Source of the DNA: an uncultured delta proteobacterium
Lineage (GTDB): Bacteria; Myxococcota; Myxococcia; Myxococcales; Myxococcaceae
Reading direction: 5' to 3'
DNA length: 64,000 nucleotides
Assembly: GCA_963771175.1 (NCBI GenBank)
Contig: CAVYSY010000010.1
Span: 32,001-96,000, forward strand
The stretch's first letter is position 1, and each line of letters opens with the position of its first letter. This document shows positions 120 through 62,875 of this stretch, one piece after another. The notes beneath the pieces were generated by a model. That model was given only the letters and a program-made list of their open reading frames with translations. It made no database searches and had not been told where the DNA came from. Position numbers and translations under genes: made by a program.

Positions 120-141
120 CCCGGACCCCGCCAGCCCCCCC

Positions 142-1567
<1,426 letters not shown>

Positions 1568-1642
1568 GTCACGCTGGCGAAATATCGCCGCGAAACCATC
1601 GGTTCGGTCCCGGCCACAACCCTTTTGACTCTGGGAGCATGA

Positions 1643-2714
1643 ATGCGGCCGCCTCTTCCCACCCTCGGACCTCAACCGAAGAAAAGCCCTGTAGGGCCGG
1701 TGATGGCCGTCTCCTTGCTGCTCGGCCTGAGCGCCGGGGGCGTGTGGTGGTGGAAGCAGCGACTCACCTCCGAGCAGCCCGCCACGGCCACCGCCCAGAC
1801 GGAGCCGTCTGTCACCGCCGCCCGTGGCTCCCGGGCCCGCAGGACGCGGGCTCCACCGCCAACGCCGCCCCCACGGCCGCCGCGCCCACCGTCGCGGATC
1901 CGCTCAAGACCGCCGGGCTGTCCCGCGCCGCCATCCGCATCGACGGTCCGCTGGAGACGGCGATCGTCGCCGTCGCCGGCTCCGAGGTGGGCCCCGCGCT
2001 CGCCCAGGTGGTGACGCGCACGCTGGTCTGGTGGGTGGACGTGCCGCGGTGACATCCGCCGCGGGGACACGATGGACGTCCTCTACGAGATGCGCCCCGG
2101 CGAGGAGCCGCTGGTGCACGCGGTGCGCTTCACCAGCAACAAGACGGGCCAGACGCACCGCGCCTACCGCTTCCAGGCCGCGGGCGACAACAACCCCCGC
2201 TACTACCTGCCCAGCGGCGAGGAGCTGGAGTTGCGCCTGGAGCACTCGCCCCTGGACGACTACGAGCAGGTGACGTCGCTGCTGCGCGATGGTCGCCGCC
2301 ACAAGGGCGTGGACTTCAAGACGGCCGTGGGCACCCCGGTGAAGGCGCCCTTCACCGGCGTCGTCCGCCGCAAGAACTGGAACTTCCGCTTCAACGGCAA
2401 CTGCGTCGAGCTCGAGGAGGTCGGTGGCAAGCGCCGCCGCGCCCTCTTCCTGCACCTGGACGAGCTGCCGCGCTCGCTCAAGGTGGGCGACCGCTTCGCC
2501 GTGGGCTCCATGCTGGGCCGCAGCGGCAACACCGGCCGCTCCTTCGCGCCCCACCTGCACTACCAGCTCGATGGCCGGCGACGAGCGCGTCCTGGATCCC
2601 TACGAGAGCCACCGCACCTACCGGCGCTCGCTGGCGGCCACGCAGCGCGCGGCCTTCGACGCCGAGGTGCGCCGGCTGGATGGGCTGCTCGGCACCACCC
2701 TGGCGGGCGGCTGA
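1643..2714 (+). CDS. M23-family (LytM/MepM-like) peptidoglycan endopeptidase with N-terminal membrane anchor; frameshifted
   Basis: Hydrophobic [18 protein letters not shown]; zinc motifs HKGVDF (HxxxD) and [10 protein letters not shown] (HxH). Confidence 0.85.
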
Positions 2715-2726
2715 GTCCTTCGATTC

Positions 2727-2755
2727 TTGACACCCCCGCCCGCGGCGGCTAGCGT
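2727..2755 (+). promoter_or_regulatory. Sigma70/SigA-type promoter of the outer-membrane protein gene
   Basis: TTGACA (2727-2732), 17-nt spacer, TAGCGT (2750-2755), ~80 nt upstream of ATG 2834 with GGAGG RBS. Confidence 0.6.
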
Positions 2756-11350: not shown

Positions 11351-12208
11351 ATGAACCTGCCCCCCTATCTTCCCAACCCCTGGCATGAGCTGCTCGAGTC
11401 GCTAACGCATCTCCGCGAATACCCCTGGTTCTCCGGGCGGCTTCGCTACCTCAGGGACTTCACCCGGTGGCAGAGACAGGTGCGCCATCAAGGCCCCCTA
11501 CCCGCCCCAGGACCCCAGCGCCTCACCGTCATCCTCCTCAGCTACCGGCGGGTCCGGAACATGGAGCCCCTGGTGGAGAGCCTGCTGCGTACCGACTTCG
11601 TCGGTCACGTCGTCGTCTCCAACAACAACCCCGCCTACCGGATCTCCGATTGGGTGCGGTTGCGCGACGAGCGCCTGCAGCTGGTGGATCAACCCGTGCG
11701 TCGGCACGCGGGCGTCCGCTTCGAGCTGGCCCGGTCCGCGCCCGGCGACTACTTCGCCAGCATTGATGACGACATCTTCCTGCTGCCCTCCCAGGTCGAG
11801 CACCTCTTCCGCTCGCTGCTCGATGATTCGAGCGTCCCCCACGGACTCCAGGGGGAGAGTCACGACGGCGAGCACGGGCCGGAGGAGACCCAGGGCTGGA
11901 GGGTGAACCTGCGCGGCGAGCAACGGGTGGACAGCATCAACCGCGTCTACTTCTTCACCCGAGAGCACCTGACCGAACTGTACCGGCTCGCGGGCCTCTT
12001 GGGCCTGGAGGTGGGCAACATGTCCAATGGAGAGGATCTGCTGCTGAGCAGCTGCGGCCAGGCGCGGCCCCTCGTCCACGAGGTGGGCAAGGTGACTGAC
12101 TGCCTGTCGGCCTGCCGACGCGGAGTGGCCATCTCGTGGACACACCAGCACTTCTTCCAGGAGCGCACCGCCCTGCTGGCTCGTCTGCGCGCCCTCAAAC
12201 CCCTGTAA
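11351..12208 (+). CDS. GT-A fold glycosyltransferase-like protein (GT2/GT64-like)
   Basis: TVILLSYRR..LVESL..VVVSNNNP N-terminal pattern, SIDDDIFL DxD motif, NGEDLLL late acidic motif. Confidence 0.7.
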   Translation: MNLPPYLPNPWHELLESLTHLREYPWFSGRLRYLRDFTRWQRQVRHQGPLPAPGPQRLTVILLSYRRVRNMEPLVESLLRTDFVGHVVVSNNNPAYRISDWVRLRDERLQLVDQPVRRHAGVRFELARSAPGDYFASIDDDIFLLPSQVEHLFRSLLDDSSVPHGLQGESHDGEHGPEETQGWRVNLRGEQRVDSINRVYFFTREHLTELYRLAGLLGLEVGNMSNGEDLLLSSCGQARPLVHEVGKVTDCLSACRRGVAISWTHQHFFQERTALLARLRALKPL

Positions 12209-12235
12209 GCGGCCCCGCTCGGGGAGGCCCGGCGC

Positions 12236-13204
12236 CTACTGCTCCAGCCGGGAACACCACTGCGCGTCGAAGACGGTGTCCAGGTAGGCCCCGCCCTTGT
12301 CCGCACACAAGAAGACGACCGTGGGGGGCGACATGGCGGACCTGATCCTGGGCAGGTATTCCTTCACCGCCGCGTAGCACGAGCCCGACGAGCCCCCCAC
12401 CAGCAGCCCGTGCTTGAACAGCAGCTCCCGGCAGGCCTTCACCGTCGCGATCTCCGGCACGTTCACCACGTCATCGATGATCGCTTGATCCACCAGCTCC
12501 GCCCGCACGCTCGCCCCGATACCGGGGATGTAACGCTTCTTGGCCGGCTTGCCGAAGATCACCGACCCCTCCGCGTCCACCGCGATCACCTTCGCCGAGG
12601 GGAACTGCTCCTTCACCCGCCTCGACACCCCGGCGATCGTCCCTCCCGTGCTCACGCCCACGAAGACGTAATCCACCTGCTTGAACGCCCGGCAGATCTC
12701 CTCCCCCGTGAACCGGTAGTGCGCCTCCGCCACCTGCGGATTGCCGTACTGGTTCGGCCAGAACACGTCCCCCAGGGTGTTGCGCAGCTCCTGCACCTTG
12801 TTCAGCCGCGTCTTCAGGAAGCCACCCGTGTCGTCCCGCTCCTCCACCTTCACCACCGTCTCGCACATCCGCCGCAGGTAGGCCTCGTTCGCCCCGGCGA
12901 TGTTCGGATCAATCACCGGAATGAACTTCAGCCCCAGCAACCGGCAGTAGCTCGCCATGGCGTTGGCGAAGTTCCCCGAGGAGGACTCGACCAACGTCGT
13001 CTTGTCCGTCACCACCCCCGCCTCCACCGCCGTCTTCAGCAACCAGAACGCCGGGCGATCCTTCAGGCTCCCGAACGGATTGCTGTGCTCCAGCTTCGCG
13101 AACAGCTGGATGCCCTCCTCGACCAGTTCCACCACCGGCGTTTCCCGCAGGCTTCGCTGAAGCTGGTTGATGCGCTCGGCAAGAGAAACGTTCTGATAGT
13201 GCAT
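12236..13204 (-). CDS. sbnA: SbnA-family PLP enzyme of L-2,3-diaminopropionate biosynthesis
   Basis: FAKLEHSNPFGSLKDRPA (PLP Lys), ESSSGNFA, GGFLKTRL, WPNQYGNP, GVSTGGT, GSVIFG..KRYIPGIG, YLDTVF; GAGG RBS before ATG 13204. Confidence 0.88.
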   Translation of the reverse strand: MHYQNVSLAERINQLQRSLRETPVVELVEEGIQLFAKLEHSNPFGSLKDRPAFWLLKTAVEAGVVTDKTTLVESSSGNFANAMASYCRLLGLKFIPVIDPNIAGANEAYLRRMCETVVKVEERDDTGGFLKTRLNKVQELRNTLGDVFWPNQYGNPQVAEAHYRFTGEEICRAFKQVDYVFVGVSTGGTIAGVSRRVKEQFPSAKVIAVDAEGSVIFGKPAKKRYIPGIGASVRAELVDQAIIDDVVNVPEIATVKACRELLFKHGLLVGGSSGSCYAAVKEYLPRIRSAMSPPTVVFLCADKGGAYLDTVFDAQWCSRLEQ

Positions 13205-13444
13205 GGTGGTGGACCTCGCCACTACAGCCTCACTACAATTTTAAAATCAGGACTCAGAGTAATTCCTCCTAATTCCCACAGTCAACAGTTTTTCGAATAA
13301 GCCTGGAATTCCCCTCTTCATGGGCGAGTCCCCGCCCGAGAGCAGTGAAAGGCCGGGGACTTCGGGAGGAGAAGAGCGCGAGGGCCCCCGGCGATTCACT
13401 CCCGCCACAATCTCGTCGTGTCAGTAGATTTCGTTTCACTCTCA

Positions 13445-13471
13445 TTACGGATATCTGTTCAATATCCGTAA
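13445..13471. promoter_or_regulatory. Candidate operator: perfect 10-bp inverted repeat in the divergent sbnA/NRPS promoter region
   Basis: TTACGGATAT-CTGTTCA-ATATCCGTAA in an AT-rich intergenic region, 58 nt upstream of the NRPS ATG. Confidence 0.6.
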
Positions 13472-13529
13472 ATCGAGGCAGCTCGGCCAAAGCACGCGCC
13501 AGGCGCCCTCCCCCCTCATCCGAAGAGCC

Positions 13530-33268
<19,739 letters not shown>

Positions 33269-33334
33269 ATCCGCTCCCCGCCTGGCCCTCCGCCTCCTCA
33301 TTCCCTACTTCTTCATTCGATAGAGCACCTCGCC

Positions 33335-49036
<15,702 letters not shown>

Positions 49037-49040
<4 letters not shown>

Positions 49041-50698
49041 GACTGATCTCCCTGCTGATGAGCCGCTCGCGGCTCTTCATACCGGCGGTGCTGTGCAGCC
49101 TGGGTGCGGGCGCCGCCAGCGCCGGGCTGCTCGCCTTCATCAACCGGGCCCTCTCGGGGGACCCCACCAGCACCCCCTGGCTGCCCATCGGCTTCGCCCT
49201 GCTCGCGCTGCTGGTGCTCCTCACCCGCGTCGTCTCGAACGTGCTGCTCACCCAGCTGCACGAGGGCACGATGTACGAGCTGCGGGTGGACCTGTGCCGC
49301 CGCATCCTCGCCACGCCCCTGCGCCGACTGGAGGAGCTCGGCACGCCCCGGCTGATGGCCTCGCTGTCGGACGACGTGCATGTGATCAGCAACAGCCTGT
49401 TGCTGATGCCCACCCTGGTCAGCCACATCGCGGTCATCGGCGGCTGCCTGGCCTACATGGCCTGGCTCTCCTGGCCCGCCTTCCTGGGCGTCCTGGCCTT
49501 CATGGGGTTGGGAGTGCTGACGTACTGGCTGCCCGCCCGGTACATCGTCCGGCTGCTCCGCATCACCCGCGACACGCAGGACGTCCTCTACAAGAACTTC
49601 CGCGCCCTCACCGAGGGCCTCAAGGAGCTGAAGCTCCACCGTGAGCGGCGCACGGCCTTCCTCCGGGAGGACTTGGAGGACACGGCCTCGCAGCTGCGGC
49701 GGCTGCGCACGCGCAGCAGCAACCTGGACTCCGTCAACAAGATCTGGGGCTCCCTGCTCTTCTTCATCCTGGTGGGGCTGCTGCTCTTCCTCTTTCCCCA
49801 CTTCACCGTGGTGGATCGAGCCACCCTCACCGGCTACACGCTCACCGTGCTGTTCCTGCAGCAGCCGCTGGACACCCTCATCAACGGTGTCTATCTGATC
49901 AGCCAGGGCAACATCGCGCTGACGAAGATTCAGCAGCTCGGACTGGGAGACCCGGAGCACCCGGGGGACGCGCCGCCGCAAGCGCCCGCGGTGGGCACCT
50001 TCCAGCAGCTCGAGCTCGTGGACGTCACCCACAGCTACCACCGCGAGCACGAGGACCGCGCCTTCACCCTGGGCCCGGTGCGGCTGACGCTCCGGCGCGG
50101 GGAGCTCGTCTTCCTGGTGGGCGGCAACGGCAGCGGGAAGACGACCCTGGCCAAGCTCCTCACCGGGCTCTACCGGCCCGAGTCGGGAGAAATCCGCCTC
50201 AATGGCGAGCCCGTCACCGAGGCCAGGAGCGAGGAGTACCGGCAGCACTTCTCCACGGTCTTCTCGGACTTCTTCCTCTTCGAGCGAATGCTGGGGCTGA
50301 CGCCTCCGGACCTGGAGGAGCGGGTGCGCGAGTACCTGCTGCAGCTGCAGTTGGACCGCAAGGTGCGGATGGTGGATGGAGTGCTGTCCACCACGGCGCT
50401 CTCCCAGGGACAGCGCAAGCGTCTGGCGCTGCTCACGGCGTGGCTGGAGGATCGCCCCATCTACGTCTTCGACGAGTGGGCGGCGGATCAGGATCCCACC
50501 TTCAAGCGCGTCTTCTACGAGGAGCTGCTGCCGGAGCTGCGGCGCCAGGGCAGGACGGTGGTGGTCATCTCCCACGACGACAGGTACTTCCACCTGGCGG
50601 ACAGACTCATCCGGCTGGAGTCCGGCCAGCTTCGGGAGGACACCGCCCTGGAAGCGGCGCCCCCGGCCCTCATGGAGAAGAAGAAGGTGCACGCATGA
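49037..50698 (+). CDS. Cyclic peptide export ABC transporter (SyrD/PvdE/YojI family)
   Basis: GTG overlaps the NRPS stop; six TM segments; GLKELKLH; GGNGSGKTT; LSQGQRKRLAL; FDEWAADQDP; ISHDDRYF. Confidence 0.93.
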
Positions 50699-52173
50699 AT
50701 CGCAAGGCCCGGTTGTTCCTGGAGGCGGAGCCCTTCCACAGCGCCGCGGGCGCCATCAACGCCTGGGTGGAGGAGGAGCTGAAGGCGCTCGGCTTCGAGA
50801 CGGAGCGGCACAACCACCACCGCACCAGCGCGCGCGACGCCGCCATGCCGCTGGGCAACGCGCGGCGCCTGCTGCAGCTGCGGGCGCAGCCCCCCGCGGA
50901 CCTCGCCGTCTACTGCGACATGGGCCTGGGCATCCACGCGCCTGGCCGCGAGCTGGCCCGGCGCACGCTCGTGTACTTCCACGGGCTGTACGGTGAGCCC
51001 ACTGCATGGCTGGGCAACCCGCTCATCGATCGCTACGTGGCGCTCTCCCCCTACGTGCAGGACGTGCTCGGCGCGCTGCTGACCACGCCGGACTGGAGCC
51101 GGCGCCAGTGCCTGGAGCCGCGAGGGCCCCAGGTGGTGGACTACCTGGTGCCGACCCTGCCGTGCCTGGAGACACCGGAGGGGGAGCCGCGCATGCCGGG
51201 CGGGGAGCTGCCCGCTGAGGTGCAGCAGGCGCTGGAGCGCGGCGAGGTGCTGGGCCACGCGGTGCAGCCGGGCAAGGCGGACTGGCTGGCCGTGTGCTCC
51301 ATCCTGCTCAACCTCCACGGGCTCGCCCGTGAGCACGGCCGTCCTCCCTTCCGACTGGTGGTGGCCGCCCAGGACTTCGACACGCTCCAGCACGCCCTGC
51401 GCTACGGCCACCCCGCGGACGCCTCGGCGCTGGGCGCGGCCCTGAGCGCCTTCGGCGTGCGCCTGGAGGATCTGCTGCTGCCGGTGGCCCACCTGCGCCA
51501 GCCGGCCCTCTTCCGCCTCTTCAAGGCCGCGCGCTTCGGCCTCTGCTACAACGTCTACCCGGAGCCCTTCGGGCTGTACGTGCTCGAATCGGTGCTCAAC
51601 GGCTGCCCCATCTACACCAACGGGGCCGGCAACAACCGGCACGCGCTGCCTCCCGAGCACGGCATCACCGTGCTGGAGACGCCGGACATGGCCTTCGGAG
51701 ATCCGGGCGCCTACGCGGAGGTGGCGGCCCGCATCTTCCAGGACGTGACCACCCCGGGCACCCACGAGGAGTCCTGCCGGCGAGGCGCGGAGCTCGTGCG
51801 CCGCACCTTCACCCGAGAGGCCTTCTCCTCCAGCTTCCGGGCCTGCCTGTCCCGACTGGAGGAGGGCGCGCCGCCCCTGCCCTTCGACGAGCTGCGCGTG
51901 CGCATCAGCCCCATGGTGCGCCGCATGGACGAGTCCACCGGCCAGGTGGTGTCCGACTACATCCACACCCTGCTCTCCCCCGACGAGCTGCGGCTGATGC
52001 GCGAGGTGGTGGGCCAGCCGGCCGGTGCTCTCGGGCGCGACGGCGGGACGGGCCTCTCGCTCCTCCAGGGCCTCTTCGACAAGGGCGTGCTGTCGCTCGA
52101 CGCCCCGCCCGAGTCGCTCTCCCCCGGCGCCGGCCCCCTCGCCGCCCGGCCCTGGTACGCGCCCCTCCGCTGA
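50695..52173 (+). CDS. GT-B fold (GT4-like) glycosyltransferase-like protein
   Basis: ATGA overlap with the exporter; VYFHG motif; EPFGLYVLES..GCPI matches the GT4 E-x7-E signature. Confidence 0.65.
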   Translation: MNRKARLFLEAEPFHSAAGAINAWVEEELKALGFETERHNHHRTSARDAAMPLGNARRLLQLRAQPPADLAVYCDMGLGIHAPGRELARRTLVYFHGLYGEPTAWLGNPLIDRYVALSPYVQDVLGALLTTPDWSRRQCLEPRGPQVVDYLVPTLPCLETPEGEPRMPGGELPAEVQQALERGEVLGHAVQPGKADWLAVCSILLNLHGLAREHGRPPFRLVVAAQDFDTLQHALRYGHPADASALGAALSAFGVRLEDLLLPVAHLRQPALFRLFKAARFGLCYNVYPEPFGLYVLESVLNGCPIYTNGAGNNRHALPPEHGITVLETPDMAFGDPGAYAEVAARIFQDVTTPGTHEESCRRGAELVRRTFTREAFSSSFRACLSRLEEGAPPLPFDELRVRISPMVRRMDESTGQVVSDYIHTLLSPDELRLMREVVGQPAGALGRDGGTGLSLLQGLFDKGVLSLDAPPESLSPGAGPLAARPWYAPLR

Positions 52174-52262
52174 AGGACCCGCACTCAGAGAAAAATTCGC
52201 TGACACCGTCGCGGTATTTTCATGGTACACACGGAATCCGCGACTGATTGACTGATTAGAGG

Positions 52263-53117
52263 ATGGACATGCAACCCGAGGCATCGGCACCCCAAGACGG
52301 GACGACTCCAGCCAACCCCCAGGCCTCCGGGCTGCTGGAGGGTCTGAAGCAGCGCGCACTGCAGCAGGCGGGAGGTGCCGTCACCCGCGGCGTCATCACC
52401 TTCGCGGAGCAGGTGACGCGAGCCATCGAGCGCACCTCGGACGCGCGGCGCACCTTCTTCGATCCGATGGACTTCCCCTTCACCTCGCACATGGAGAAGC
52501 ACTGGCGCACCGTCCGCGAGGAACTGGACGCGCTCATGCGCGGGGTGGACGTCATGCCCAACTTCCAGGACATCCAGCAGGAGCAGCGAGAGCTGACCAC
52601 GGACGATCGCTGGAAGACGTTCGTCCTCTACGGGTACGGCGTGAAGCTGGAGGACAACTGCCGGCGCTGCCCGATGACGACGCGCCTGGTGGAGAGCATC
52701 CCCGGCATGACGTCCGCCATGTTCTCCATCCTTCGCGGCCCCAAGCACATCCCCCCGCATAACGGGCACTACAAGGGCGTGCTGCGCTACCACCTGGGCC
52801 TCATCGTCCCCGAGCCCGAGAAGAACTACATCCGCGTGGGGCAGGACAAGGCTTCCTGGCAGGAGGGCCAGAGCCTCATCTTCGACGATACCCACGAGCA
52901 TGAGGTGCGCAAGGAGAGCGAGGGGGACCGAGTCGTCCTCTTCGTGGACTTCCTGCGGCCGCTGCCCCCGGTGCTCGACACCCTCAACCGCCTGGTGGTG
53001 AAGACGATCAGTCTGTCCCCCTACATCCGCCAGGGCGAGAAGAACCTCCAGCAGTGGGAGGAGTACTTCGGCCAGGAGTTGGATCAGCGCCGCGGCGCTT
53101 CCGGCAGGCGCTCCTGA
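52263..53117 (+). CDS. Aspartyl/asparaginyl beta-hydroxylase (AspH/LpxO-like) Fe(II)/2OG dioxygenase
   Basis: WKTFVLYGYG, CPMTTRLVESIPG..AMFSIL.GPKHIPPH, LRYHLGLIVP, WQEGQSLIFDDTHEHEV, RVVLFVDF.RP. Confidence 0.88.
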   Translation: MDMQPEASAPQDGTTPANPQASGLLEGLKQRALQQAGGAVTRGVITFAEQVTRAIERTSDARRTFFDPMDFPFTSHMEKHWRTVREELDALMRGVDVMPNFQDIQQEQRELTTDDRWKTFVLYGYGVKLEDNCRRCPMTTRLVESIPGMTSAMFSILRGPKHIPPHNGHYKGVLRYHLGLIVPEPEKNYIRVGQDKASWQEGQSLIFDDTHEHEVRKESEGDRVVLFVDFLRPLPPVLDTLNRLVVKTISLSPYIRQGEKNLQQWEEYFGQELDQRRGASGRRS

Positions 53118-53170
53118 GCCCTCTCGTCGTCGCACCTGGCAGTCCCACCCTCAGCGTTTCACCCTCCCCC

Positions 53171-55219
53171 ATGACACGAACTGGAATGAAGAGCTGGATG
53201 TCCGGGCTCTCCCTGGCACTCGCACTGACCGGATGTACTCCCACCTCGCCGCAGGAACTGACGGCGCTACCCTCGCTCGAGGCGCCCGCCACCACCGCCA
53301 CCGCCGTCACCACTCCGGTGACGGGCTTCGCGGAGATGCACCACCACATGATGGGCGAGGAGGCCTTCTCCGGTGGCTGGTTCCACGGCACGCACCTGGG
53401 ACCCCTGGTGGACTGTGATGGCGGCGAGCCGCCCAGCGATCACGCCCGCGTGCGGCAGGATCTCTCCAGCCTGCTGAACCTGTGCCCTGGCAGCTCCGCC
53501 CTGGACTTGTCGGGGGTGCCGCTGCTCCACGAGCTCTTCTGGGTGGGCGGCGCCGTGGGCTCGGAGATCGTCGGCCAGACGGACAACTCGGAGGGAGATA
53601 CGGGCCTGCACCTGGGCCGCATGAAGGCCCACACCGACTGGCCCCGCTGGGACACCATCGCCCACCAGCAGTCCCTGGGCACCTGGCTCAAGTCCGCCCA
53701 TGACCGCGGCATGAACCTGGTGGTCGTCTCCGCCGTCAGCAACGGCTTCCTCTGCAGCCTGCTGCCCTACGACAACATCAAGCGGCCCTGCGACGAGATG
53801 GTGGACGCGGAGCTGCAGATCCAGATGGCCCGCCAGTTCGCCACCAACAACAGCACCTGGGTGGAGATCGCCCTCTCGCCGTCGCACGCGCGCAGCATCG
53901 TCGCCTCGGGCAAGCTGGCCGTGGTGCTCTCCATCGAGGTGAGCAAGCTCTTCGGCACCAAGAACTGGAGCACCGAGCTGGACCGCTTCTACAACCTGGG
54001 CGTGCGCACGTTGCAGCCGGTGCACCAGCTCGACAACCGCTTCGGCGGAGCGGCGCCGCACAACTCCATCTTCCACGTGGCCCAGTTCACCGAGAACTGC
54101 CACGTCGACTATGACTGCGGCCTCACCACGGGCGACTTCACGCTCGGCTTCGACGTGGACGCCAACTGCCGCAACACCAAGGGCCTGACCACCGAGGGCA
54201 AGGCGCTGATGCAGGCGATGATGTCCAAGGGCATGCTCATCGACGTGGCCCACCTCTCCGAGCGCGGCATCCAGGACGCCTACGCGCTGGCGCAGGCCAA
54301 CACCTACTACCCGCTCTACATCTCCCACGGCCACTTCCGCGAGGTGATGACCCCCAAGCTGGCCGCCAACGAGAAGACGACGCCGGCCTCCGTCGTCAAG
54401 CTCCTCCGGCAGACGGGCGGCATGTTCGGCCTGCGCACGGCGCACGACGAGACGCTCGAGTACACGCGCTCGGGCGTGGCCAACAGCTGCCACGGCTCCA
54501 GCCGCTCCTTCGCGCAGGCCTACCAGTACGGGCGCCTGGGCCTGAAGGTGCCCATGGGCTTCGGCGCGGACATGAACGGCTTCATCCAGCAGACGCGACC
54601 GCGCTTCGGCGACTACGGCGCGTGCTCGGCCACCTTCAAGGCCGAGGCCGACGCCCAGACGAAGCAGCAGCGCGTCAGCGGCCCCAGCGGCGTGGGCACC
54701 GAGTTCGACCAGAAGGGCCTGGCGCACATCGGCCTTCTCCCGGACCTGATAGTCGACCTGGGCAAGCTCGGCGTGGACACCACGGGATTGCAGGGCTCGG
54801 CGGAGACGTTCATCCGCATGTGGGAGCGGGCGGCCGGTACCCGCGCTGGCATGGCGGACGCGGCCACTGACATCGACACCAGCGGCATCGCCCCCTGGGT
54901 CTCCCGCGAGACGCGCGAGCAGGCCTATCCCACGCAGTGCGGCGAGGCCTATGCGCCCGCCTACCAGGTGCTCGGTGGCTCGTGCCGCTTCAACGCCGAG
55001 TGCCAGAGCAACAAGTGCACCTCGGCGCCCTGCACCATCCAGACGGGGACCTGCATCTGTGACGACCACGCCGACTGCGGCACCAACCAGTACTGCGGCT
55101 ATGCCCTCAACAACGGCATCTGCCAGAACAAGAAGGCCTCGGGCGCCCTCTGTGCCTATGGCTTCGAGTGCCTCTCGGCCACCTGCCGCCTGACGATCAC
55201 CGGCACCCGCTGCAAGTAA
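53171..55219 (+). CDS. Lipoprotein membrane dipeptidase (peptidase M19, amidohydrolase fold) with Cys-rich C-terminal domain
   Basis: Lipobox LALTGC; EMHHH, VLSIEV, GVRTLQPVH, GLTTEGK..GMLIDVAHLS, YISHG, FGADMNG; 14 Cys in the last ~95 aa. Confidence 0.8.
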   Translation: MTRTGMKSWMSGLSLALALTGCTPTSPQELTALPSLEAPATTATAVTTPVTGFAEMHHHMMGEEAFSGGWFHGTHLGPLVDCDGGEPPSDHARVRQDLSSLLNLCPGSSALDLSGVPLLHELFWVGGAVGSEIVGQTDNSEGDTGLHLGRMKAHTDWPRWDTIAHQQSLGTWLKSAHDRGMNLVVVSAVSNGFLCSLLPYDNIKRPCDEMVDAELQIQMARQFATNNSTWVEIALSPSHARSIVASGKLAVVLSIEVSKLFGTKNWSTELDRFYNLGVRTLQPVHQLDNRFGGAAPHNSIFHVAQFTENCHVDYDCGLTTGDFTLGFDVDANCRNTKGLTTEGKALMQAMMSKGMLIDVAHLSERGIQDAYALAQANTYYPLYISHGHFREVMTPKLAANEKTTPASVVKLLRQTGGMFGLRTAHDETLEYTRSGVANSCHGSSRSFAQAYQYGRLGLKVPMGFGADMNGFIQQTRPRFGDYGACSATFKAEADAQTKQQRVSGPSGVGTEFDQKGLAHIGLLPDLIVDLGKLGVDTTGLQGSAETFIRMWERAAGTRAGMADAATDIDTSGIAPWVSRETREQAYPTQCGEAYAPAYQVLGGSCRFNAECQSNKCTSAPCTIQTGTCICDDHADCGTNQYCGYALNNGICQNKKASGALCAYGFECLSATCRLTITGTRCK

Positions 55220-55252
55220 CCCCCTCACGCCCCCCCCAGGAGCGCACGGTTC

Positions 55253-56833
55253 ATGTACCTCAAGCCCAACGTCGCCATCGAGCCGCTCTACAACCAGTGG
55301 TACTCGTGGTGGTACCTGCTGTCGCCGGCGACGGCGCCGCTGTTCGTGACGAACCTGCACCTCAAGCTGCTGTCCTCGTTCGTCGCCAACCCCGAGGTCC
55401 ATGTCGCCGCGCTGAAGAATCCGGCGCTCATGGGGGGGCCCTTCATCAACCACCCTGCCTCCCGGGTCTCCGAGGTGAAGGCGCTGCTGGAGCGCACCAC
55501 CCGGGAGCAGGCGCACATGGTGGCCTACACCAAGGCGGTGGCCGAGCTGGAGCAGCTCCTGGCCACCGCCGCCACCGGCCCCTCCCTGGAGGGGCTCTAC
55601 GCCAAGGTGCCGGACGTGCTGCGCGGCTATGTGGAGCTGACGTACGACATGGCCAACCACGCCAGCATCCGTTTCGTCGAGCCGCTCCTCTATCGCAGCC
55701 GCTACCAGCAGGAGTCCTCGCAGAGCGTCTTCCTCATGCAGGTGGACGGCGATGCGCGCAAATACATCTACAGCACGCCCCGCCTGGAGGGGGACTCCCC
55801 GCTGTGGCTGCAGGTGCCCTACCGTCACGAGGGCCTGGACGAGCTCTTCCGCATGCGCACCACCTCCGGCTCCCCGGGGCGCGTGGCGGAGATGCTGGGG
55901 GTGCCCTCCAGCGCCGCTTCCGAGTTCGCCGCCCTCTTCACCGAGACGCCCCCGCGCCGCCCCGAGCCCTGGACGGGTGACGGCGTGCGCATGCGCTACT
56001 TCGGCCATGCCTGCATGCTGCTCGAGTCCCGTGACGTCTCGGTCCTCACGGATCCGGTCATCAGCTACGAGTTCCCCACGGAGCTGCCGCGCTTCACCCA
56101 CGCGGATCTCCCCGAGCGCATCGACTACGTGGTCATCACCCACGGCCATGCGGATCACCTGATGATGGAGACGCTGCTGCAGCTCCGCCACCGGGTGGGC
56201 ACCGTGGTGGTACCGCGCAACAACGGCGGCGGGCTGGCGGATCCCTCGCTGCGGCTGATGCTGGAGAACAACGGCTTCCGCAACGTGGTGGAGCTGGACG
56301 AGCTGCAGCGCATCTCGCTGCCCGGCGGAGGCGCCATCACCGGCATCCCCTTCTTCGGCGAGCACAGCGATCTCAACATCCAGGCGAAGATCGCTCACCT
56401 GGTGCAGCTCGGCGGCAAGTCCTTCCTCATGGCGGCGGACTCGAACGCACTCGAGTCCCGGCTCTACCAGCACCTGCGCGAGGTGGTGGGAGAGATCGAC
56501 GTGCTCTGCCTGGGCATGGAGTGCGAGGGAGGGCCGATGAGCTGGATGTACGGGCCACTCATGAGCCAGCCCATCCCGCGCAAGGTGGATCAGTCACGGC
56601 GGCTCAACGGCTCCAACTGCGCGCGAGCCAGCGAGATCGTCAACCACCTCAACCCCAAGGAGGTCTACGTCTACGCCATGGGCCAGGAGCCCTGGCTGCG
56701 CCATGTGATGATGCTGGCGTACGACGACAAGGCCCCGCAGATGATCGAGTCCAACCGCTTCATCGAGTTCTGCCGCGGCCGGGGAATCCACGCCGAGCGG
56801 CCCTACATCCGCATGGAGCGGATGTTCACCTGA
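55253..56833 (+). CDS. CmlA-like di-iron, metallo-beta-lactamase-fold amino acid beta-hydroxylase
   Basis: [74 protein letters not shown], matching my recollection of chloramphenicol CmlA motifs. Confidence 0.88.
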
Positions 56834-56876
56834 AGCCCTTCCGCCCTCCACCCACGACACGGACACACGACAGCCC

Positions 56877-57089
56877 ATGAGCGAGCACGAGGACACGCAG
56901 CGTTGCAAGGTAGTGGTCAACCACGAGGAGCAGTACTCCATCTGGCCCGCGGATCGCGAGAACGCCCCCGGCTGGAAGGATGCCGGCAAGGAGGGCCTCA
57001 AGGCCGAGTGCCTCGAGCACATCAAGCAGGTGTGGACGGACATGCGTCCCCTGAGCCTGCGCCAGAAGATGGAGCAGCAGCGCAACTGA
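56877..57089 (+). CDS. mbtH: MbtH-like protein
   Basis: [34 protein letters not shown]. Confidence 0.96.
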
Positions 57090-57120
57090 GGGCCCACTCC
57101 GGCCCGTTTCCCGGGCGGGC

Positions 57121-57145
57121 GGCGGAGGCCCGAGCAGCCTCCGCC
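57121..57145. terminator. Hairpin between convergent mbtH and the immunity-like gene
   Basis: GGCGGAGGC-CCGAGCA-GCCTCCGCC, 9-bp perfect stem. Confidence 0.55.
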
Positions 57146-57157
57146 ACCGTCCCGCGC

Positions 57158-57950
57158 TTACTCGTTCTGGAACCACTCCGCTGGGATGCCCAGCGCCGCG
57201 AGAATCCGCTCGGGCGAGCGCTCTCCCTTGATGTCGCTGACAACCGGGCAGAGACGGAAACTCAGACGGGCGGCTGCGCGAACTCGTTCAATGCCCTCTC
57301 CCCCTCGCATCACGGTGACAAAGAACATGTCCAGGCGCGGCGAGGCAGTTACCCCATACACAGTTGCATGAGGAAGCCGTTCCGACACAGTAATGTCAGC
57401 GAAACTCATGCCGCCTGTTCCGCCGGCGAGAAGCGAGCCCTCGCGGCGTGTCCTCGAGGCGGTAGCGCCCCGGAGCGTAGTGGTTCGCCAGCATCTGCCT
57501 CCAGCGCGCGTCGCGCCTCCTCTGTCCGGACTCCTTCTATCAGCGCGACCGTCCGCAGCGGCTTCCTCGCGGCTCGGTCCGAAGTCTTCGTCGCGTCCTG
57601 GCAGCGGACAGCCGAGAGACTTCGCCAGGGCGTCTGGGTCCACCTCCAGGACCTCTAGCGCACCGTTTCGCCACGACGTGACGGCCCAGGGATCGTTGGC
57701 GCGCTCAATCGAGTACACGGGCTCATCACATTCGAGCGACAGTTCCTTGGCGATTTGCAGTCTCGGCGCCCACGTCGATGGGGTCCGTCCCCACGATGGC
57801 ATGGTAGCGACCACTGCCCGGGATGATCTCGAAGGACGGCTCTTTTCCGTCCTCTTCGTCCTCCTCCAACATCAGCGCGGCACGGACACGGCTCTCCAGC
57901 CATGCGGGCTCGCCTGGAGCCAGGACCGCCCAGAGAGGCCACCGGCTCAT
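57158..57950 (-). CDS. Hypothetical protein, candidate immunity protein; frameshifted
   Basis: ATG 57950 overlaps the toxin TGA (ATGA); MSRWPLWAVLAPGEP..EEDEEDGKE.. continues after an indel as IAKELSLECDEPVYSI..LGIPAEWFQNE; acidic, atypical codon usage. Confidence 0.55.
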
Positions 57951-60900
57951 GGCGCACCTCCGGACAAGTCCTCTGGCAGCTTGAGTGCCGCGCGCAACTG
58001 CTTCGTCTTCTCCAGTATCTGCGCCTCCTCTATGTGAATGAGCAGCGTGCCTCGGTGCGTTCTCATGCCAGGAATTCTGAGCAGCTTGAGCCTGGTCGGC
58101 CCACTCAGCTTGTCTGTAATGACGAGAAACGGTTTCCCTCGAGGGGCCTTCGCCGCATCCGCGAGTTGGTCGAGCAGGCGCTGGAGTTGCTTTATTAGCG
58201 CCTCCTGCTGTTCGTTGAGCTTGGCGCCGCCCTGTCTGGCCAGCCAGGCGTCGAGCGCCTTGCGCCACCTGTCTTCGTTCCAACCCTTTACTTCCACCCC
58301 GTGTTGAAGCTTTGACTCCATCATCGCCGTAAGCACGTTGTCGATGATGTGCCCGTCTTTCATTTGTCACCTGCCGCCCGGTCAGCCGGAAGCCCGGGAA
58401 GAGCTTCCGCGCATTGCGCTCTGTCAGCATCTCCGCCGCGATGCCTCGGAGTCGCTCGCGCACCCGCCGTTGCAGCTTGAAATTCCCCGGTTCCGCCGCC
58501 GCCTGCTGGACAGTCTTTCCACGGCGTCATCTTGTTCCTGGCCATGGCGTTGAGGTCCTCCAGGGTCAGCCCCGTCGAGCGCAGCCAGCCCAGGTCCACG
58601 CTGCCCCTGCATGCTTTCCTCGCCAGCTCAGCCACTGCCTCGGCTTCCAGTTCCGGGTGGCTGACGAGCCACTCGGCCTCCTTCAGGAAGGCATGCGGGT
58701 CCGTCAGGCTCGGCGCTCCTGAGCGGCGCAGCAATCCCGGTAGCGCCGGCTTCGCCGCACCGCGGGCGGAGGCGCGCAGCTTTTCCACCGCGGCGAGGTA
58801 CGCCTGGGCCTTGTCCGCCGGGAGGGCCGCCGCGCGCCTCGCCACGGCGTTGTAGGCGAGCGCCATCTCCTGGCTCTCCGCCGCCAGCAGTTTCAGTGCG
58901 TCCAGGGTCTTCTCGGCCTCCTGGACCGCGAGCCCCGCGCCGCGAATGCCACCGAGGGCCCGTGCAGCGGCCATCTCCCCCCGTATGGCGAAGAAGGCCT
59001 GCTTGAGGGCCTCGGCGCCGCCAGGGAGGGAAAACCGCAGTCCGTCCGGTGTCGCAACGACCTTGCCCTCGGCGAGCATCCGCTCCAGCGTCTTCGCCAG
59101 GGCCTGGATGGACTCCACGGACTCGCGCAGTCCAGCCGAGGCCCGTGCGCCAGACTGGCTCAACACCCGCCCTCCCCGGTGCGCCAGCTCGCGCCAGATG
59201 CCCGAGGTGGCCAGCTTGGAAATGTCCCTTCCGGCCAGTGCGAGCATGGCCACGTCATGCACCGCGAGAAAGGCCCGTCCCTCCGGCGTCCGCGACAGCT
59301 CGTCGCGCCAGGTGTCCACCACCGCCAGGGTCGTCACCAGGGACATGCGGCCGATGAACTGGCGCACCGCCGCCTGACGCGCCGCCGCCACCGTGCCGCT
59401 CTTGCGCGGCGGTGGCCGTCACCCCTGTCAGCAGCGGCGCCCGCGCCAATGCCGACATGGCGCCGTAAACGATGTGCATCTCACTGATGCGGCCCAGCGC
59501 CGCCCAGAGAAGCGGTGTGTCCGGCAGGGAGGCGAGCAGGGCCAGCTCCATGGCCGTCATGAGGTGGGTGCGCGGCTGTGGCCCATGGACTTCCACGCGC
59601 ACCCACTCGAGCGGGTGCAGGGCGCGGCTGCGTGGCCCCTCCTCCACCGAGGAGAGGTAGCGCGCCTGGAATTGCTGCCGCACCGGCTCGAAGTACAGGG
59701 CCATGCGCTGGGAGGCCCCGGCCACCTCTCCCGGCAGGGCGGGTTCCGCGCCCAGGCGCACTCCCTGCTTCGCGTCCCACGCCTCCGGCGCCACCAGCGT
59801 CGTGGACACCAGCCCGGAGGGCACGTTCAGCAGGTGGGTCGTCTCGCCCTCTCGCCCCAGGTGGAAGGTGGGCAGGGCGTCGAGTGAGTCGAGCACGAGG
59901 GGAAACGAGGCCAGCGCCTTCTGGGTGAAGGCCCGTCCCAGCAGCACCTTGGCGGGCGCGTCGCCGCCGAGCAGCTTCTCCAGCACCTCGCCCGAGGTGA
60001 GCCCGCGCTCCAGGGCGGGAAACTCCTGGGCGGGCATGGACAGCACCACCCGCGCGAGCAGGTGCACGGCGTCCTCCTCCAGGCTCGTCGGAGGCGAGGA
60101 CGGTGTCGAAGACGCCCAGGCGCTCGTCCCGGGTGAGCAGGGAGAGCACGTCATGGTCGAGCCCGAGGAGGGGCTGGGGCGCGTCCGGTGTCGCCGCGGC
60201 GAGGGCCGCGTCCAGAATCTCCCGCCGCAGGGCCGCCAGCTCGCCCGTGCCGCTCCCCATCCCCACCCGCCAGTCCCCCGGGCGGATGAAGAGCGTCCCG
60301 GGGTAGTACCAGTAGAAGTTGCCCTCGGGGTGCTCGAGCGGCTCGGGGGCACCGGCGGCGACGCGGAATTCGACGCTGTAGCCACGCCAGCGCCCATCCT
60401 CCCCGGGGATGATGAGGCGCGGGCCGCTACGTGGAAGGTTGCGCACCCGGAGCTCCGCGCGCTCCAGGGAGCGCTCCTCGGTGAGCAGCACCTGGAGGTG
60501 CACCTGGACGCTGGAGCCGTCCGGGAAATAGAAGCGGCCCACCACGTCTCCCGGAGAGAGAACGGGCGAGCCATCCGTGACGGAGTAGCTCGTCTTCCAG
60601 GCCTTGGAGCGCAGGGCGATGGCCTTCTGCAGGGGCTCGGAGGACTCTCCGAGGAAGTGCCAGTCCTGGGCGAGGGTGTCCCCCAGGTGCCAGCGCGGCG
60701 GCTCGTCTCGCCAGGGCGCGAGCGCCTGGAGGTAGCGGTCGAAATAGCTCTGGCCGGAGCCGTCCAGGATGTCCGAGCGCTGGGACCAGCGCAGGCCGCG
60801 CTCCACCAGCGCGGCGGCCCCGGCCTTGTCGAGGGACGTCGCCGTGAGCTGGGAGCGGCTCCACGCGACATCCGCCTCCAGTTGCGCGTCCAGGGCGCCG

Positions 60901-61709
60901 CGCATGGCGGCGAGAAGCTCGGGCAGGAGCGCTGGCGGATGGCGCACGCGCACGCGCACGCGTGGCCCTCCCTCCGCGTCAGGTGGGGCCGCGAGGGGCT
61001 CGAAGTCGAAAGAGTCCACCGCGGACGCATCCCCGAAAAGCCGTGAGGCGAGCTCCTCCCGCGAGACATGACCGGGAACCCAGAGCAGCTCGGGCCGCTC
61101 CGGGTCAACCTGGACGGGGAACGGGGCCTCCTGGAGGGAGAGGAAGTCCAGCGCGTCGGCCTCGTCCTCCGGTGTGTCCTCCAGCTCGGGCTCGGACAGC
61201 TCGTCCTCTAGCCACTCTGGCGGGATGTCGTGCTCCATGGGTGGGAGACGCCAGGTGCGCACCAGGGCGGGCTTGCCCGCGTGCTTCCAGTCCCACTCAT
61301 AGGTGAGAGTGAGCAGCTCTCCGGCGCCAGCTTCCGCCGGGACGTGTACCTCCACCTCCTCCCGCCCTGGCTCTCGGTTGACCACCCGGGGCAGGGCCGT
61401 GGGCGGGTAGGCCTCGAGCGGGTCCACCCGCAGCCGCTGGTCCTCGCCCCAACCCAGCGCGCCCGCGGCGATGATCTCAGCGCCTGCCCTCACCACCAGA
61501 CGCCCCGGCTCCACCACCCGCAAGGAGAGCACGCCCTCCTCCTGCCAGACTTCCAGGCGGGGGCTGTGTGCATCCTCCCGCGGGCGCGCATCCACCGAGA
61601 GCGTCACCCTCTCTCTCCTCAGCTCGCCACTGGCCGCGCTCATGCTGGCTACAAGGAAGCTCGTAACCAAGAGGGCCTGGAGGCTCTTCGCACAGGCGGC
61701 TTCACGCAT
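57947..61709 (-). CDS. Large secreted protein (~1250 aa) with C-terminal PD-(D/E)xK nuclease domain, candidate polymorphic toxin; about four frameshifts
   Basis: Signal-like LQALLVTSFLVASMSAASG; Ala/Leu-rich helical middle; tip RLRGIAAE..GHIIDNVL..HGVEVKGW..QLQRLL..PFLVIT; joined from ORFs 59481-61709, 59255-61108, 58360-59391, 57726-58463 and 57947-58363. Confidence 0.62.
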
Positions 61710-61785
61710 GTTCCCACCCCTGCGCTTTTTCGGCTCCCTCCCAGGACTCCGCCGGAAGCGTGGGTGAGGACCCTCACTCTCATTG

Positions 61786-61822
61786 AGCCCCTCCGCGAGG
61801 AAGGGGTCCTCGCGAAGGGCTT
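61786..61822. terminator. Imperfect hairpin downstream of sbnB
   Basis: GAGCCC-CTC-CGCGAGGA-AGGGG-TCCTCGCG-AA-GGGCTT between the sbnB stop and the toxin start. Confidence 0.4.
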
Positions 61823-61861
61823 CTGGCTCCGGGATTTGTTAGAGAACTTTTGGCGACCTGC

Positions 61862-62875
61862 CTAGCGCGTCAGCTCGTAGAAGAAGTCGTCGATGCGCAC
61901 GGCCTTCCCGGCCGCCTTCGCCTGCTCGAACACCCACGAGCCCACGGCCAGGTCCAGCACGCCCAGCCCGAAGGGCGAGAAGAGGATGGGGCGCGTGCGG
62001 TCCACCTTGCACTCGCCCTGGATGAGCTGGGCCAGCGTGCCGGTGACGAAGTCTCGTCCCCCGCTGAGCTTCTCCGCCAGGTGGGGCGACGTGTTGGCCT
62101 TCATCACGTGCTCCACGTCATCCACGATGTTGTAGCTCTGGAGGACGATCTCCGGCGACACATCGCGCAGCGAGATGTTGAGCACGATGGGATTGTGGGC
62201 CAGCAGGCTGGCGTCGGTGATGTAGGGCGTGGGCACCGTGGTGGCCAGCAGCACCATGTCGCTGGAGCGCAGCGCGGTGGCCAGATCCGGCGCCACGTGG
62301 ATGTGCCGATGCCGCGTCTTGTCGCACACGTTGTCCGCGAAGCGCTGGGCCTCGCCGGGCGTCGTGTCGTACAGCCACACCTCGTCCACTTCCCAGCCCA
62401 TCTTCAGGAAGAAGTCGTAGATGTAGCGGGCGATGAGGCCGTTGCCCACGATGCTCAGCGAGCGCGTGCGCCGCTGCCCTCCGTTCAACCACTGCGCGGC
62501 CAGCACCGCCGAGCCCGCCGTGCGGGCCGCCGAGATGATGGAGCTCTCCAGACAGGCGAAGGGGTAGCCCGTCTCGTAGTCATTGAGCAGCAGCGCCGCC
62601 GAGGCCCGCGGGAAGCCCTTCTTCACGTTCGCCGGGAAGCTGGAGATCCACTTCAGGCCCGCCACGTCGTAGTCCCCGCCCAGGTAGGCCGGGAGGGCGA
62701 TGATGCGGGCGTCCGGCTTGTCGGGAAAGCGCAGGAAGTAGCTGTCCGGGTTGACGCTCTTGCGCGCCCCATGGAGCAGATAGGCGCGCTCCACCTGCTG
62801 GACGCAGCCGGCGATGTCGCCGTGGATGATCTCGTGGATGGCCTTGCCGGGAACGATGGAGAATTCGAAGGACAT
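61862..62875 (-). CDS. sbnB: SbnB-family (ornithine cyclodeaminase/mu-crystallin) L-2,3-diaminopropionate biosynthesis protein
   Basis: VNPDSYFLRFPDKPDARIIALPAYLG, GLKWISSFPAN, ISAARTAGSA, LNISLRD, TSPHLAE, FSPFGLGVLDLAVG. Confidence 0.92.
   Translation of the reverse strand: MSFEFSIVPGKAIHEIIHGDIAGCVQQVERAYLLHGARKSVNPDSYFLRFPDKPDARIIALPAYLGGDYDVAGLKWISSFPANVKKGFPRASAALLLNDYETGYPFACLESSIISAARTAGSAVLAAQWLNGGQRRTRSLSIVGNGLIARYIYDFFLKMGWEVDEVWLYDTTPGEAQRFADNVCDKTRHRHIHVAPDLATALRSSDMVLLATTVPTPYITDASLLAHNPIVLNISLRDVSPEIVLQSYNIVDDVEHVMKANTSPHLAEKLSGGRDFVTGTLAQLIQGECKVDRTRPILFSPFGLGVLDLAVGSWVFEQAKAAGKAVRIDDFFYELTR

What the first reader, a model, noticed from the sequence alone, without database searches (positions are those of the whole stretch)
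11351..62875. Apparently complete orphan glyco-lipopeptide NRPS/PKS cluster that I cannot match to a known myxobacterial product
Seen: FAAL-ACP, eight NRPS modules, one PKS module, a terminal C domain, and overlapping start/stop codons at the NRPS1/PKS, NRPS2/exporter and exporter/GT junctions, plus SbnA/B, two GT-like genes, two hydroxylases, an M19 peptidase and MbtH. Known: the codes read by eye match Thr, Ala, Ser, aromatic and diamino-acid pockets. Inferred: the product is fatty acyl-Dhb/Thr-Ala-Dap-Aro-(CHOH-CH2)-Dap-Ser-D-Thr-Aro, probably beta-hydroxylated and glycosylated. The gene kit recalls antifungal glycolipopeptides (occidiofungin, hassallidin), but the module order matches neither as I recall them, nor cystomanamide, vioprolide or corramycin.
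Basis: partly seen in the sequence, partly recalled or inferred. Interest (0 to 1): 0.88.

Follow-up and report, generated by a model that had tools for sequence, protein, structure and literature searches.

The report
Orphan myxobacterial glycolipopeptide assembly line
This is a real gene cluster, conserved in several predatory soil bacteria, that should build a so far unmatched sugar-bearing lipopeptide, and one of its enzyme domains lacks the usual catalytic histidines, which hints at peptide chemistry not yet characterised.

Summary
The architecture is confirmed: FAAL-ACP, Thr, Ala, diamino acid, aromatic, PKS (KS-AT-KR), diamino acid, Ser, Thr+E, aromatic, terminal C, no TE. The 246 frameshifts (227 insertions) are most likely assembly errors: flanking housekeeping genes carry them too, and near-identical public contigs lack the extra bases. 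Orthologs occur in 8 of 208 family genomes, two genera; two show three intact genes with the same module order. Ten paper searches found no matching product; MIBiG could not be searched. Corrections: the M19 peptidase, the GT2 gene and a 4.6 kb insert are not core; D-Thr should be D-allo-Thr; the malonyl-type AT motif lies in an error patch, and all 10 orthologs differ. New: module 2's condensation domain is a dehydrating (modAA) type whose HHxxxDG site reads SEPFLDG. Forty such domains form one clade, all follow Thr, and 28 of 28 visible i+2 modules have His-, diamino-acid- or putatively basic codes, versus 3 of 44 controls. This suggests, without proving, a dehydrobutyrine-to-side-chain-nitrogen crosslink. 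Verdict: new variant of a known kind.

The parts
13530..28659 (+). NRPS1: FAAL-ACP-C1-A(Thr)-T-C2(modAA, His-less)-A(Ala)-T-C3-A(Dap/Dab)-T-C4-A(Tyr/Phe)-T; frameshifted in this assembly from about 18.1 kb
   Evidence: orthologs intact in G197 and G161
18879..20166 (+). C2: modAA-class condensation domain; active site SEPFLDGWS at 19293-19319 replaces HHxxxDG; keeps the modAA motif K-SVLIAAH
   Evidence: top PDB hits McyA (E 2e-102) and AmbE (E 3e-59) for the G003 ortholog; window sequence; region covered by near-identical public contigs
28656..33268 (+). PKS module KS-AT-KR-ACP; TTG start overlaps the NRPS1 stop; AT motif unreliable here, non-HAFH in orthologs
33335..49040 (+). NRPS2: C5-A(Dap/Dab)-T-C6-A(Ser)-T-C7-A(Thr)-T-E-C8(DCL)-A(Tyr/Phe)-T-terminal C
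47672..48995 (+). Terminal C domain (HHAITDLVS), probable release/cyclisation domain; groups with C1 and with the terminal C of the G006/G014 clusters
49037..50698 (+). Cyclic-peptide ABC exporter (TIGR01194), coupled to NRPS2
50695..52173 (+). GT4-like glycosyltransferase (EPFGLYVLE motif); core gene, directly after the last NRPS or exporter in all 6 ortholog loci whose 3' end was fetched
52263..53117 (+). Asp/Arg-hydroxylase family enzyme, closest to acyl 2-hydroxylases OlsC/LpxO (below cut-off); core gene
53171..55219 (+). M19-family peptidase with a lipobox-like N-terminus; probably a passenger
55253..56833 (+). CmlA-type diiron beta-hydroxylase; accessory (adjacent in G003, about 15 kb away in G015, not seen in G197/G161 loci)
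56877..57089 (+). MbtH-like protein
11351..12208 (+). GT2-like gene; not found in 5 ortholog carriers, 69% identical to a gene of the G006/G014 cluster family
12236..13222 (-). SbnA (Dap biosynthesis), divergent from NRPS1
61862..62875 (-). SbnB (Dap biosynthesis); the only over-cut-off copy in this assembly
57157..61750 (-). Broken copy of a multi-copy two-gene element of the genus; not part of the cluster

Best explanation
A functional, conserved FAAL-started NRPS/PKS cluster of Archangium- and Corallococcus-type myxobacteria, seen here through a noisy assembly. Shown from sequence: domain order, pocket codes, gene kit, conservation. Inferred steps: (1) FAAL loads a fatty acid and C1 acylates L-Thr. 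(2) The modAA-class C2 dehydrates Thr to Dhb and joins Ala (about 0.75). (3) SbnA/B supply L-Dap for modules 3 and 5 (about 0.75 Dap over Dab). (4) Module 4 Tyr/Phe is extended by the PKS and reduced to a statine-like 4-amino-3-hydroxy unit, possibly C2-substituted because orthologous ATs lack HAFH. (5) Dap, Ser, D-allo-Thr and Tyr/Phe follow. (6) The terminal C releases the chain, most likely as a macrolactam on the Dap5 side-chain amine (about 0.45; a lactone or an external amine are alternatives). (7) The OlsC/LpxO-like enzyme hydroxylates, probably the acyl chain; CmlA may beta-hydroxylate an aromatic residue; the GT4-like enzyme adds a sugar; the ABC pump exports. Likely role: an exported amphiphilic, cationic weapon used in predation or competition (analogy only).
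For: Same 8 codes and domain order in intact three-gene lines of G197 and G161, and in pieces in G015, G003, G010, G153, G191. C2 orthologs at 82-100% identity in 8 of 208 family genomes; next best 44%. Frameshifts: 227 of 246 are insertions, amino-acid identity between them stays 0.66-0.84, and only 2 in-frame stops appear. 5 of 9 flanking genes, including the tRNA m1G methyltransferase, are also shifted. All 12 displayed 'left out' sites in public contigs lie within 7 nt of my insertion calls, 2.4 expected. C2's best PDB hits are McyA and AmbE, both listed as CmodAA in PMC11342130 Table S2. SbnA/SbnB pass equivalog cut-offs and sit beside the line in G015, G197, G161, G153. No TE is present and the terminal C keeps His-His-Asp.
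Against: No metabolite, expression or knock-out data. The laid runs are relatives, not this genome's own reads; 267 further indel rows were not displayed. Insertions are not enriched at homopolymers (26% versus 32% background), and most other NRPS sites of this assembly look clean (3 of 44 with periodicity under 0.12), so the error process is local and its cause is not shown. C2 lacks both histidines, so its chemistry may differ from plain dehydration plus amide formation. This copy lacks the GT1 found in all 6 ortholog loci whose 3' end was fetched, so its glycosylation may differ. MIBiG and subscription journals were not searchable.
Confidence: 0.72

Rival explanations
1. Same cluster, but the His-less C2 marks a crosslinking route: Dhb1 is attacked by the side-chain nitrogen of residue 3 (Dap beta-amine here, His or a basic residue in other taxa), closing a small i to i+2 ring.
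For: 40 EP-type domains form one clade (support 99); 40 of 40 follow a Thr code; i+2 is visible in 28 and reads His-type 18, DAE(H/A)S-type 6, DIWE 4, against 3 of 44 in Thr-preceded non-EP domains; at 60% clustering 9 of 9 versus 3 of 34 lineages; 4 of 4 in the later, separately fetched set. i+1 changes 7 times on the tree. PMC11342130 section 8 ties altered His motifs to conjugate additions.
Against: Only 2 changes of i+2 class on the tree, so about three independent lineages; shared ancestry may explain much. Residue 3 is not yet on the chain when C2 normally acts. The substrate of the DAE(H/A)S code is my inference. 12 of 40 domains have no visible i+2.
Confidence: 0.3
2. C2 works like BlmVI-C2: the Ala amine adds to Dhb instead of forming an amide, giving a secondary-amine head group that, with the i+2 nitrogen, binds a metal.
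For: PMC11342130 section 8: of 50 characterised CmodAA domains, the ones named as lacking both histidines are BlmVI/TlmVI/ZbmVI-C2, which do this reaction. The i+2 nitrogen bias would suit a chelator.
Against: Those domains carry Phe and Gly/Ala in place of the histidines; ours reads E-P with a two-residue gap. The T1 thioester would need a separate release step, for which no gene is evident. BlmVI could not be fetched for a tree.
Confidence: 0.1
3. This copy is a decaying pseudogene cluster.
For: 246 frameshifts and 2 stops in the deposited sequence; other NRPS loci of the assembly are mostly clean; a broken multi-copy element sits beside it; GT1 is missing.
Against: Insertion bias of 227 to 19, the opposite of bacterial decay (recalled deletion bias); GCGCGC rises to 8.1 per kb against 1.4 in the matching G015 stretch; dense patches drift toward generic motifs; public contigs match clean parts at about 99% and lack the extra bases; housekeeping genes are hit too.
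Confidence: 0.06
4. The product is already described in a source I could not search (subscription journal, thesis, patent, MIBiG 4).
For: Carriers include cultured, studied strains (named records L031, L032, P0037, P0046); the paper library lacks most subscription journals.
Against: Ten searches gave no match; all named orthologs carry only automatic names; the MIBiG 3.1-based CmodAA list names no such pathway; PMC8466578 names five EGB clusters with known products, none a lipopeptide of this kind.
Confidence: 0.15

Closest known systems
Hassallidin / puwainaphycin / herbicolin-type (glyco)lipopeptide NRPSs
   Same: Acyl-started lines with Thr followed by a CmodAA domain (HasO-C2, PuwF-C2, HbcE-C2 in PMC11342130 Table S2); glycosylation and FAAL start recalled
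   Different: Recalled: different residue order, TE release, no internal PKS statine unit. Their modAA domains are not among those the paper names as lacking both histidines.
Occidiofungin / burkholdine
   Same: Glyco-lipopeptide with aromatic, Ser and (recalled) diamino residues; antifungal
   Different: [quoted passage not shown]
Cystomanamide (ctm)
   Same: Myxobacterial glycosylated lipopeptide with a beta-hydroxy aromatic residue
   Different: Asn-Asn-Phe-glycerate-Tyr with FkbH and TE
Corramycin (com) and vioprolide
   Same: Myxobacterial FAAL-ACP start; corramycin has an internal PKS module
   Different: FAAL-ACP-C-HAD-T start; corramycin has 12 modules with His, beta-Ala, Val and TE (PMC10099666); no FkbH/HAD here
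Bleomycin BlmVI-C2 (conjugate-addition CmodAA)
   Same: CmodAA domain lacking both histidines
   Different: Different replacing residues; Ser/Asn context (recalled) instead of Thr-Ala-Dap
Fabclavine FclJ-C2, zeamine Zmn17-C2, theonellamide TnaC-C3
   Same: CmodAA domains linked to side-chain conjugate addition
   Different: They keep one or both histidines with a Cys nearby; motif is not EPxxDG
Uncharacterised sister clusters in G006 and G014
   Same: Same ndk-rlmN region, SbnA 84-85%, CmlA 86-90%, GT2, GT4-like, ABC, terminal C subtype
   Different: Different core: FAAL-ACP-KS-AT-KR start, several E domains, other codes

Membership tests
FAAL-started hybrid NRPS/PKS lipopeptide cluster | FAAL-ACP loading unit followed by a C domain | tested here: met
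   AMP-binding plus AMP-dom_DIP2-like, PP-binding, Condensation in an unbroken frame
FAAL-started hybrid NRPS/PKS lipopeptide cluster | Colinear C-A-T modules and a KS-AT-KR-ACP module with intact catalytic motifs | tested here: met
FAAL-started hybrid NRPS/PKS lipopeptide cluster | Production of an acylated peptide | not testable with these tools
   no metabolite data
CmodAA (dehydrating) C domains | Closest similarity to characterised CmodAA domains | tested here: met
   McyA 346 bits, AmbE 204 bits, next 117
CmodAA (dehydrating) C domains | [K/R]SVLLAAH motif, RR at C6, upstream Ser/Thr module (PMC11342130) | tested here: met
   [14 protein letters not shown], upstream DFWNVGMVHK
CmodAA (dehydrating) C domains | HHxxxDG active site | tested here: not met
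   SEPFLDG in the window and all 6 aligned orthologs; the source says the histidines are not strictly conserved in this class
BlmVI-type conjugate-addition CmodAA | Both His replaced by Phe and Gly/Ala; own clade | tested here: inconclusive
   both His absent but replaced differently; BlmVI sequence not available for a tree
Corramycin/vioprolide type | FAAL-ACP-C-HAD(FkbH)-T start | tested here: not met
   C1 is followed by A(Thr)
Cystomanamide | Asn-Asn-Phe-glycerate-Tyr, TE | tested here: not met
Occidiofungin/burkholdine | Asn/Ser/Gly/Tyr cyclic peptide | tested here: not met
Any MIBiG cluster | Same module order at high identity | not testable with these tools
   no antiSMASH/MIBiG; indirect only
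GT4 glycosyltransferases (50695-52173) | GT-B fold, E-X7-E motif, Pfam PF00534 | tested here: inconclusive
   motif present, Atlas 0.96 to GT4 clusters, no Pfam/NCBIfam/PDB hit

The most novel reading that the evidence does not exclude
The SEPFLDG domain defines an uncharacterised, His-less subfamily of dehydrating condensation domains, spread over myxobacteria and uncultured soil lineages (source names include Acidobacteriota, Planctomycetes, Eisenbacteria), that programs an i to i+2 aza-Michael crosslink between dehydrobutyrine and a side-chain nitrogen (Dap, His or a basic residue). This cluster would then make a bicyclic, statine-containing glycolipopeptide, and its cultured carriers would be the easiest system in which to test a new ring-forming reaction on an NRPS.
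Probability: 0.3. Interest if true: 0.85.

Novelty: new variant of a known kind. Interest (0 to 1): 0.6.

Why it matters
Orphan clusters are common in myxobacteria, so the cluster alone is of moderate interest. Three things raise it. It is conserved across two genera, with intact copies and named cultured carriers, so the product can be isolated. The predicted scaffold (acyl-Dhb, two diamino acids, an aromatic statine-like unit, a sugar, TE-less release) matches nothing I could find. And its second C domain belongs to a His-less modAA clade with a strict module context; PMC10206099 notes that crosslinking mechanisms in non-ribosomal His-bridged peptides are uncharacterised and that His-to-Dhb addition is chemically hard. 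If the crosslink reading holds, one motif would flag a whole set of cyclised peptides in soil metagenomes. The work also shows that motif-level predictions from this assembly's noisy patches cannot be trusted.

Tried and rejected
AlphaFold model of C2 from a 6-sequence alignment: pLDDT 36.8, unusable, no fold search run. Homopolymer context as the error signature: not enriched. Metagenome-contig scan with the GT4-like protein: 0 relatives among 57 candidate stretches. Sequencing-run search: no RNA holder listed. Earlier findings: nothing shown. Code strings were not found in the paper library or in the PMC12283262 supplement; the PMC8466578 supplement search returned nothing, so its cluster table was not seen. 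The Patteson 2022 and Wheadon 2021 papers are not held. and one search used off-frame coordinates; and one search give the valid results. The PDB search of module 8 did not separate Tyr from Phe. Promoter scan of 11.0-13.7 kb: one weak site, not used. M19 as a prodrug peptidase: rejected, not linked to the cluster in 5 of 5 carriers. Siderophore reading: not favoured, since no receptor gene was identified in the window, despite the PvdL-like pocket. The C-domain tree is the quick tree, not the finished careful search.


Full report
Observation. The window is G000:C10:32001-96000 of a 9.8 Mb, 58-contig, 82% complete assembly. Between about 18 and 43 kb no long frame survives. I therefore fetched colinear relatives and aligned their clean proteins to the window with a frameshift-aware script, with X at each break. 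The line is FAAL-ACP-C1-A(Thr)-T-C2-A(Ala)-T-C3-A(diamino)-T-C4-A(aromatic)-T / KS-AT-KR-ACP / C5-A(diamino)-T-C6-A(Ser)-T-C7-A(Thr)-T-E-C8-A(aromatic)-T-C. The three start/stop overlaps are in the sequence. Substrate names for the Thr, Ala, Ser and aromatic codes are recalled.

Frameshifts. There are 246 events in 13.5-49.0 kb: 197 one-base and 30 two-base insertions, 19 deletions; identity between them stays 0.66-0.84 per 2 kb, and 2 in-frame stops appear. Five of 9 flanking genes aligned to G006 are also shifted, among them the tRNA m1G methyltransferase. Low codon periodicity affects 10.8% of 900-base windows genome-wide against 2.5-5.4% in four fetched loci of relatives, an unequal comparison. 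Dense patches are inflated in GC repeats and drift toward generic NRPS/PKS motifs. Contigs of four public runs match clean stretches at about 99% (for example 1887 bases, 21 differences, 1 gap) but show many differences and gaps in dense patches; all 12 displayed one-base omissions, of 279, fall within 7 bases of my insertion calls, 2.4 expected. Against: those runs are relatives, homopolymers are not enriched, and only 3 of 44 adenylation sites genome-wide are this noisy. Artefact is the far likelier reading.

A family, not a singleton. A search of 208 family genomes with the C2 domain gave 8 genomes at 82-100% identity (G000, G003, G010, G015 in the window's genus; G153, G161, G191, G197 in a second genus) and nothing between that and 44%. 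G197 and G161 hold three intact genes with the same eight module types. Named public records with orthologous parts are Archangium minus Cbm 6 (L031, P0005, P0039), Vitiosangium sp. GDMCC 1.1324 (P0006, P0037, P0158), Corallococcus sp. CA053C (L032, P0041, P0165), Corallococcus sp. EGB (P0046), AB030 (P0044) and C. exercitus (P0009, P0045); all carry automatic names only. The core kit is NRPS1, PKS, NRPS2, the GT4-like gene and the OlsC/LpxO-like hydroxylase (6 of 6 loci whose 3' end was fetched), with SbnA/B and an ABC pump nearby in most. Those 6 also have a GT1, and five loci have a GFO oxidoreductase plus a GMC oxidoreductase; the window has none of these. The window instead shares its site (ndk to rlmN), SbnA, GT2 and CmlA with a different cluster family in G006 and G014. 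It is thus a mosaic: one family's core in the other's accessory shell. M19 homologs lie elsewhere in 5 of 5 carriers, GT2 was not found in those 5, and 57.15-61.75 kb is an element matched in 9 of 17 genus genomes, up to 20 matches each.

Building blocks. The module 5 pocket of G015 is identical in code to the PvdL domain, its best PDB hit; I recall that domain as Dab-loading. PMC12283262 (passages read) says Dab and Dap codes are 80% alike. Dap is preferred because SbnA and SbnB pass equivalog cut-offs and no aminotransferase for Dab was seen in the cluster. Tyr versus Phe is unresolved. The AT reads GHSLGE/HAFH in the window, but inside an error patch; its three closest homologs read GHSLGQ/HANH, and 10 of 10 orthologs are non-HAFH (YAGH, HAGH, HACH, HANH) while 14 of 14 more distant PKSs checked are HAFH. 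PMC7327777 (passages read) gives HAFH for malonyl and xAGH motifs for rarer extenders, so a C2-substituted unit is possible; no extender-supply gene was identified in the fetched loci. C4 and C6, which follow the diamino modules, read HHxxxDGGS and HHxxxDDRS in orthologs. The terminal C keeps HHxxxD with Leu or Gln for Gly and groups with C1; with no TE it is the only release candidate.

The unusual domain. C2's best solved relatives are McyA and AmbE. It keeps the modAA signatures listed in PMC11342130 section 8 (read whole; supplement parts 1 and 2 of 4 read; alignment figures not visible) but its active site is SEPFLDGWS, in a clean, independently covered part of the window. That paper names only BlmVI/TlmVI/ZbmVI-C2 as lacking both histidines among 50 characterised domains, and they perform conjugate addition. 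In proteins from two searches I kept 246 domains scoring at least 250 bits; 39 matched EP[FVLI][LFM]DG and I added one reading SEPYLDG. The 40 form one clade, all follow a Thr code, and the module two places on is visible in 28: His-type 18 (DSALIAEVWK is a His code in PMC12283262), DAE(H/A)S-type 6 (basic residue inferred), DIWE 4. Among Thr-preceded non-EP domains with a visible i+2 the count is 3 of 44; by 60% clusters, 9 of 9 against 3 of 34. The 4 informative domains from the later search all fitted. The i+1 code changes 7 times on the tree, the i+2 class twice. Two changes are thin evidence, and residue 3 is not on the chain when C2 normally acts. I rank plain Dhb formation first, an i to i+2 crosslink at about 0.3, and a BlmVI-like reaction at about 0.1.

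Comparison with known products. Corramycin (PMC10099666, passages), cystomanamide and burkholdine (PMC9581180, passages and section 19) differ in start unit, residues and release. PMC8466578 (passages) names five EGB clusters with known products, none of this kind, and calls most of the rest dissimilar to annotated clusters; its supplementary cluster table was not seen. PMC11837247 and PMC10435759 (term searches) added nothing. PMC10206099 (passages) was used for the state of His crosslinks. Ten library searches, seen as listings, gave no match; the library lacks most subscription journals and MIBiG was not searchable, so I leave 0.15 for an unseen description. Details of vioprolide, hassallidin, occidiofungin and bleomycin beyond those passages are recalled.

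Verdict. Observation confirmed; interpretation partly supported. It works like an acyl-started glycolipopeptide NRPS/PKS and is a member of that broad class, but of none of the named compound families tested. New variant of a known kind, interest 0.6, carried by the His-less modAA clade and by the cultured carriers.

Noticed in passing
G006:C1:6070275-6124845 (L016-L019); G014:C23:748485-773449 and C15 (L027-L029): A second uncharacterised cluster family at the same ndk-rlmN site: FAAL-ACP-KS-AT-KR start, several E domains, internal PKS, terminal C, GT1/GT2/GT4, CmlA. G006 has a long insertion in its first A domain and a fatty acid desaturase; G014 differs in module codes.
   Followed up: partly
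window 57157-61750; L044:315-4882; L045:1543-6008: Multi-copy element: an ORF of about 1230-1260 aa coupled to one of about 260 aa, no Pfam hit, up to 20 matches per genome, broken here. Layout recalls toxin-immunity cassettes used between bacteria (recalled, untested).
   Followed up: partly
window 12236-13222 and 61862-62875; G006:C1:6038768 and 6123862; L026:2490-3512: sbnA and sbnB are split by tens of kb around different clusters in G000 and G006, while G010 has ndk-sbnA-rlmN adjacent: the site looks like a swap point for biosynthetic clusters.
   Followed up: partly
P0212-P0275, P0289, P0337, P0357, P0407: Many metagenomic NRPSs with Thr-[EP-type C]-X-His, often ending in TE, some with C-T modules lacking an A domain; apparently an unexplored peptide family.
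   Followed up: partly
L012:7982-10521; L039:15890-18486: GFO-family and GMC-family oxidoreductase pair upstream of NRPS1 in five ortholog loci, absent from the window; may modify the sugar.
   Followed up: no
L013 (G015 NRPS genes): The single-contig genome G015 also shows a few frame breaks in these NRPS genes.
   Followed up: no
G000:C1, C25, C45, C46: Several further NRPS clusters in this genome; C25:137196-138500 holds another modAA-like domain (43%), C45 has noisy patches like this one, and C1 and C45 hold CmlA and MbtH paralogs.
   Followed up: no
window 2-2752: Frameshifted sigma-54 activator and M23 peptidase genes at the left edge.
   Followed up: no
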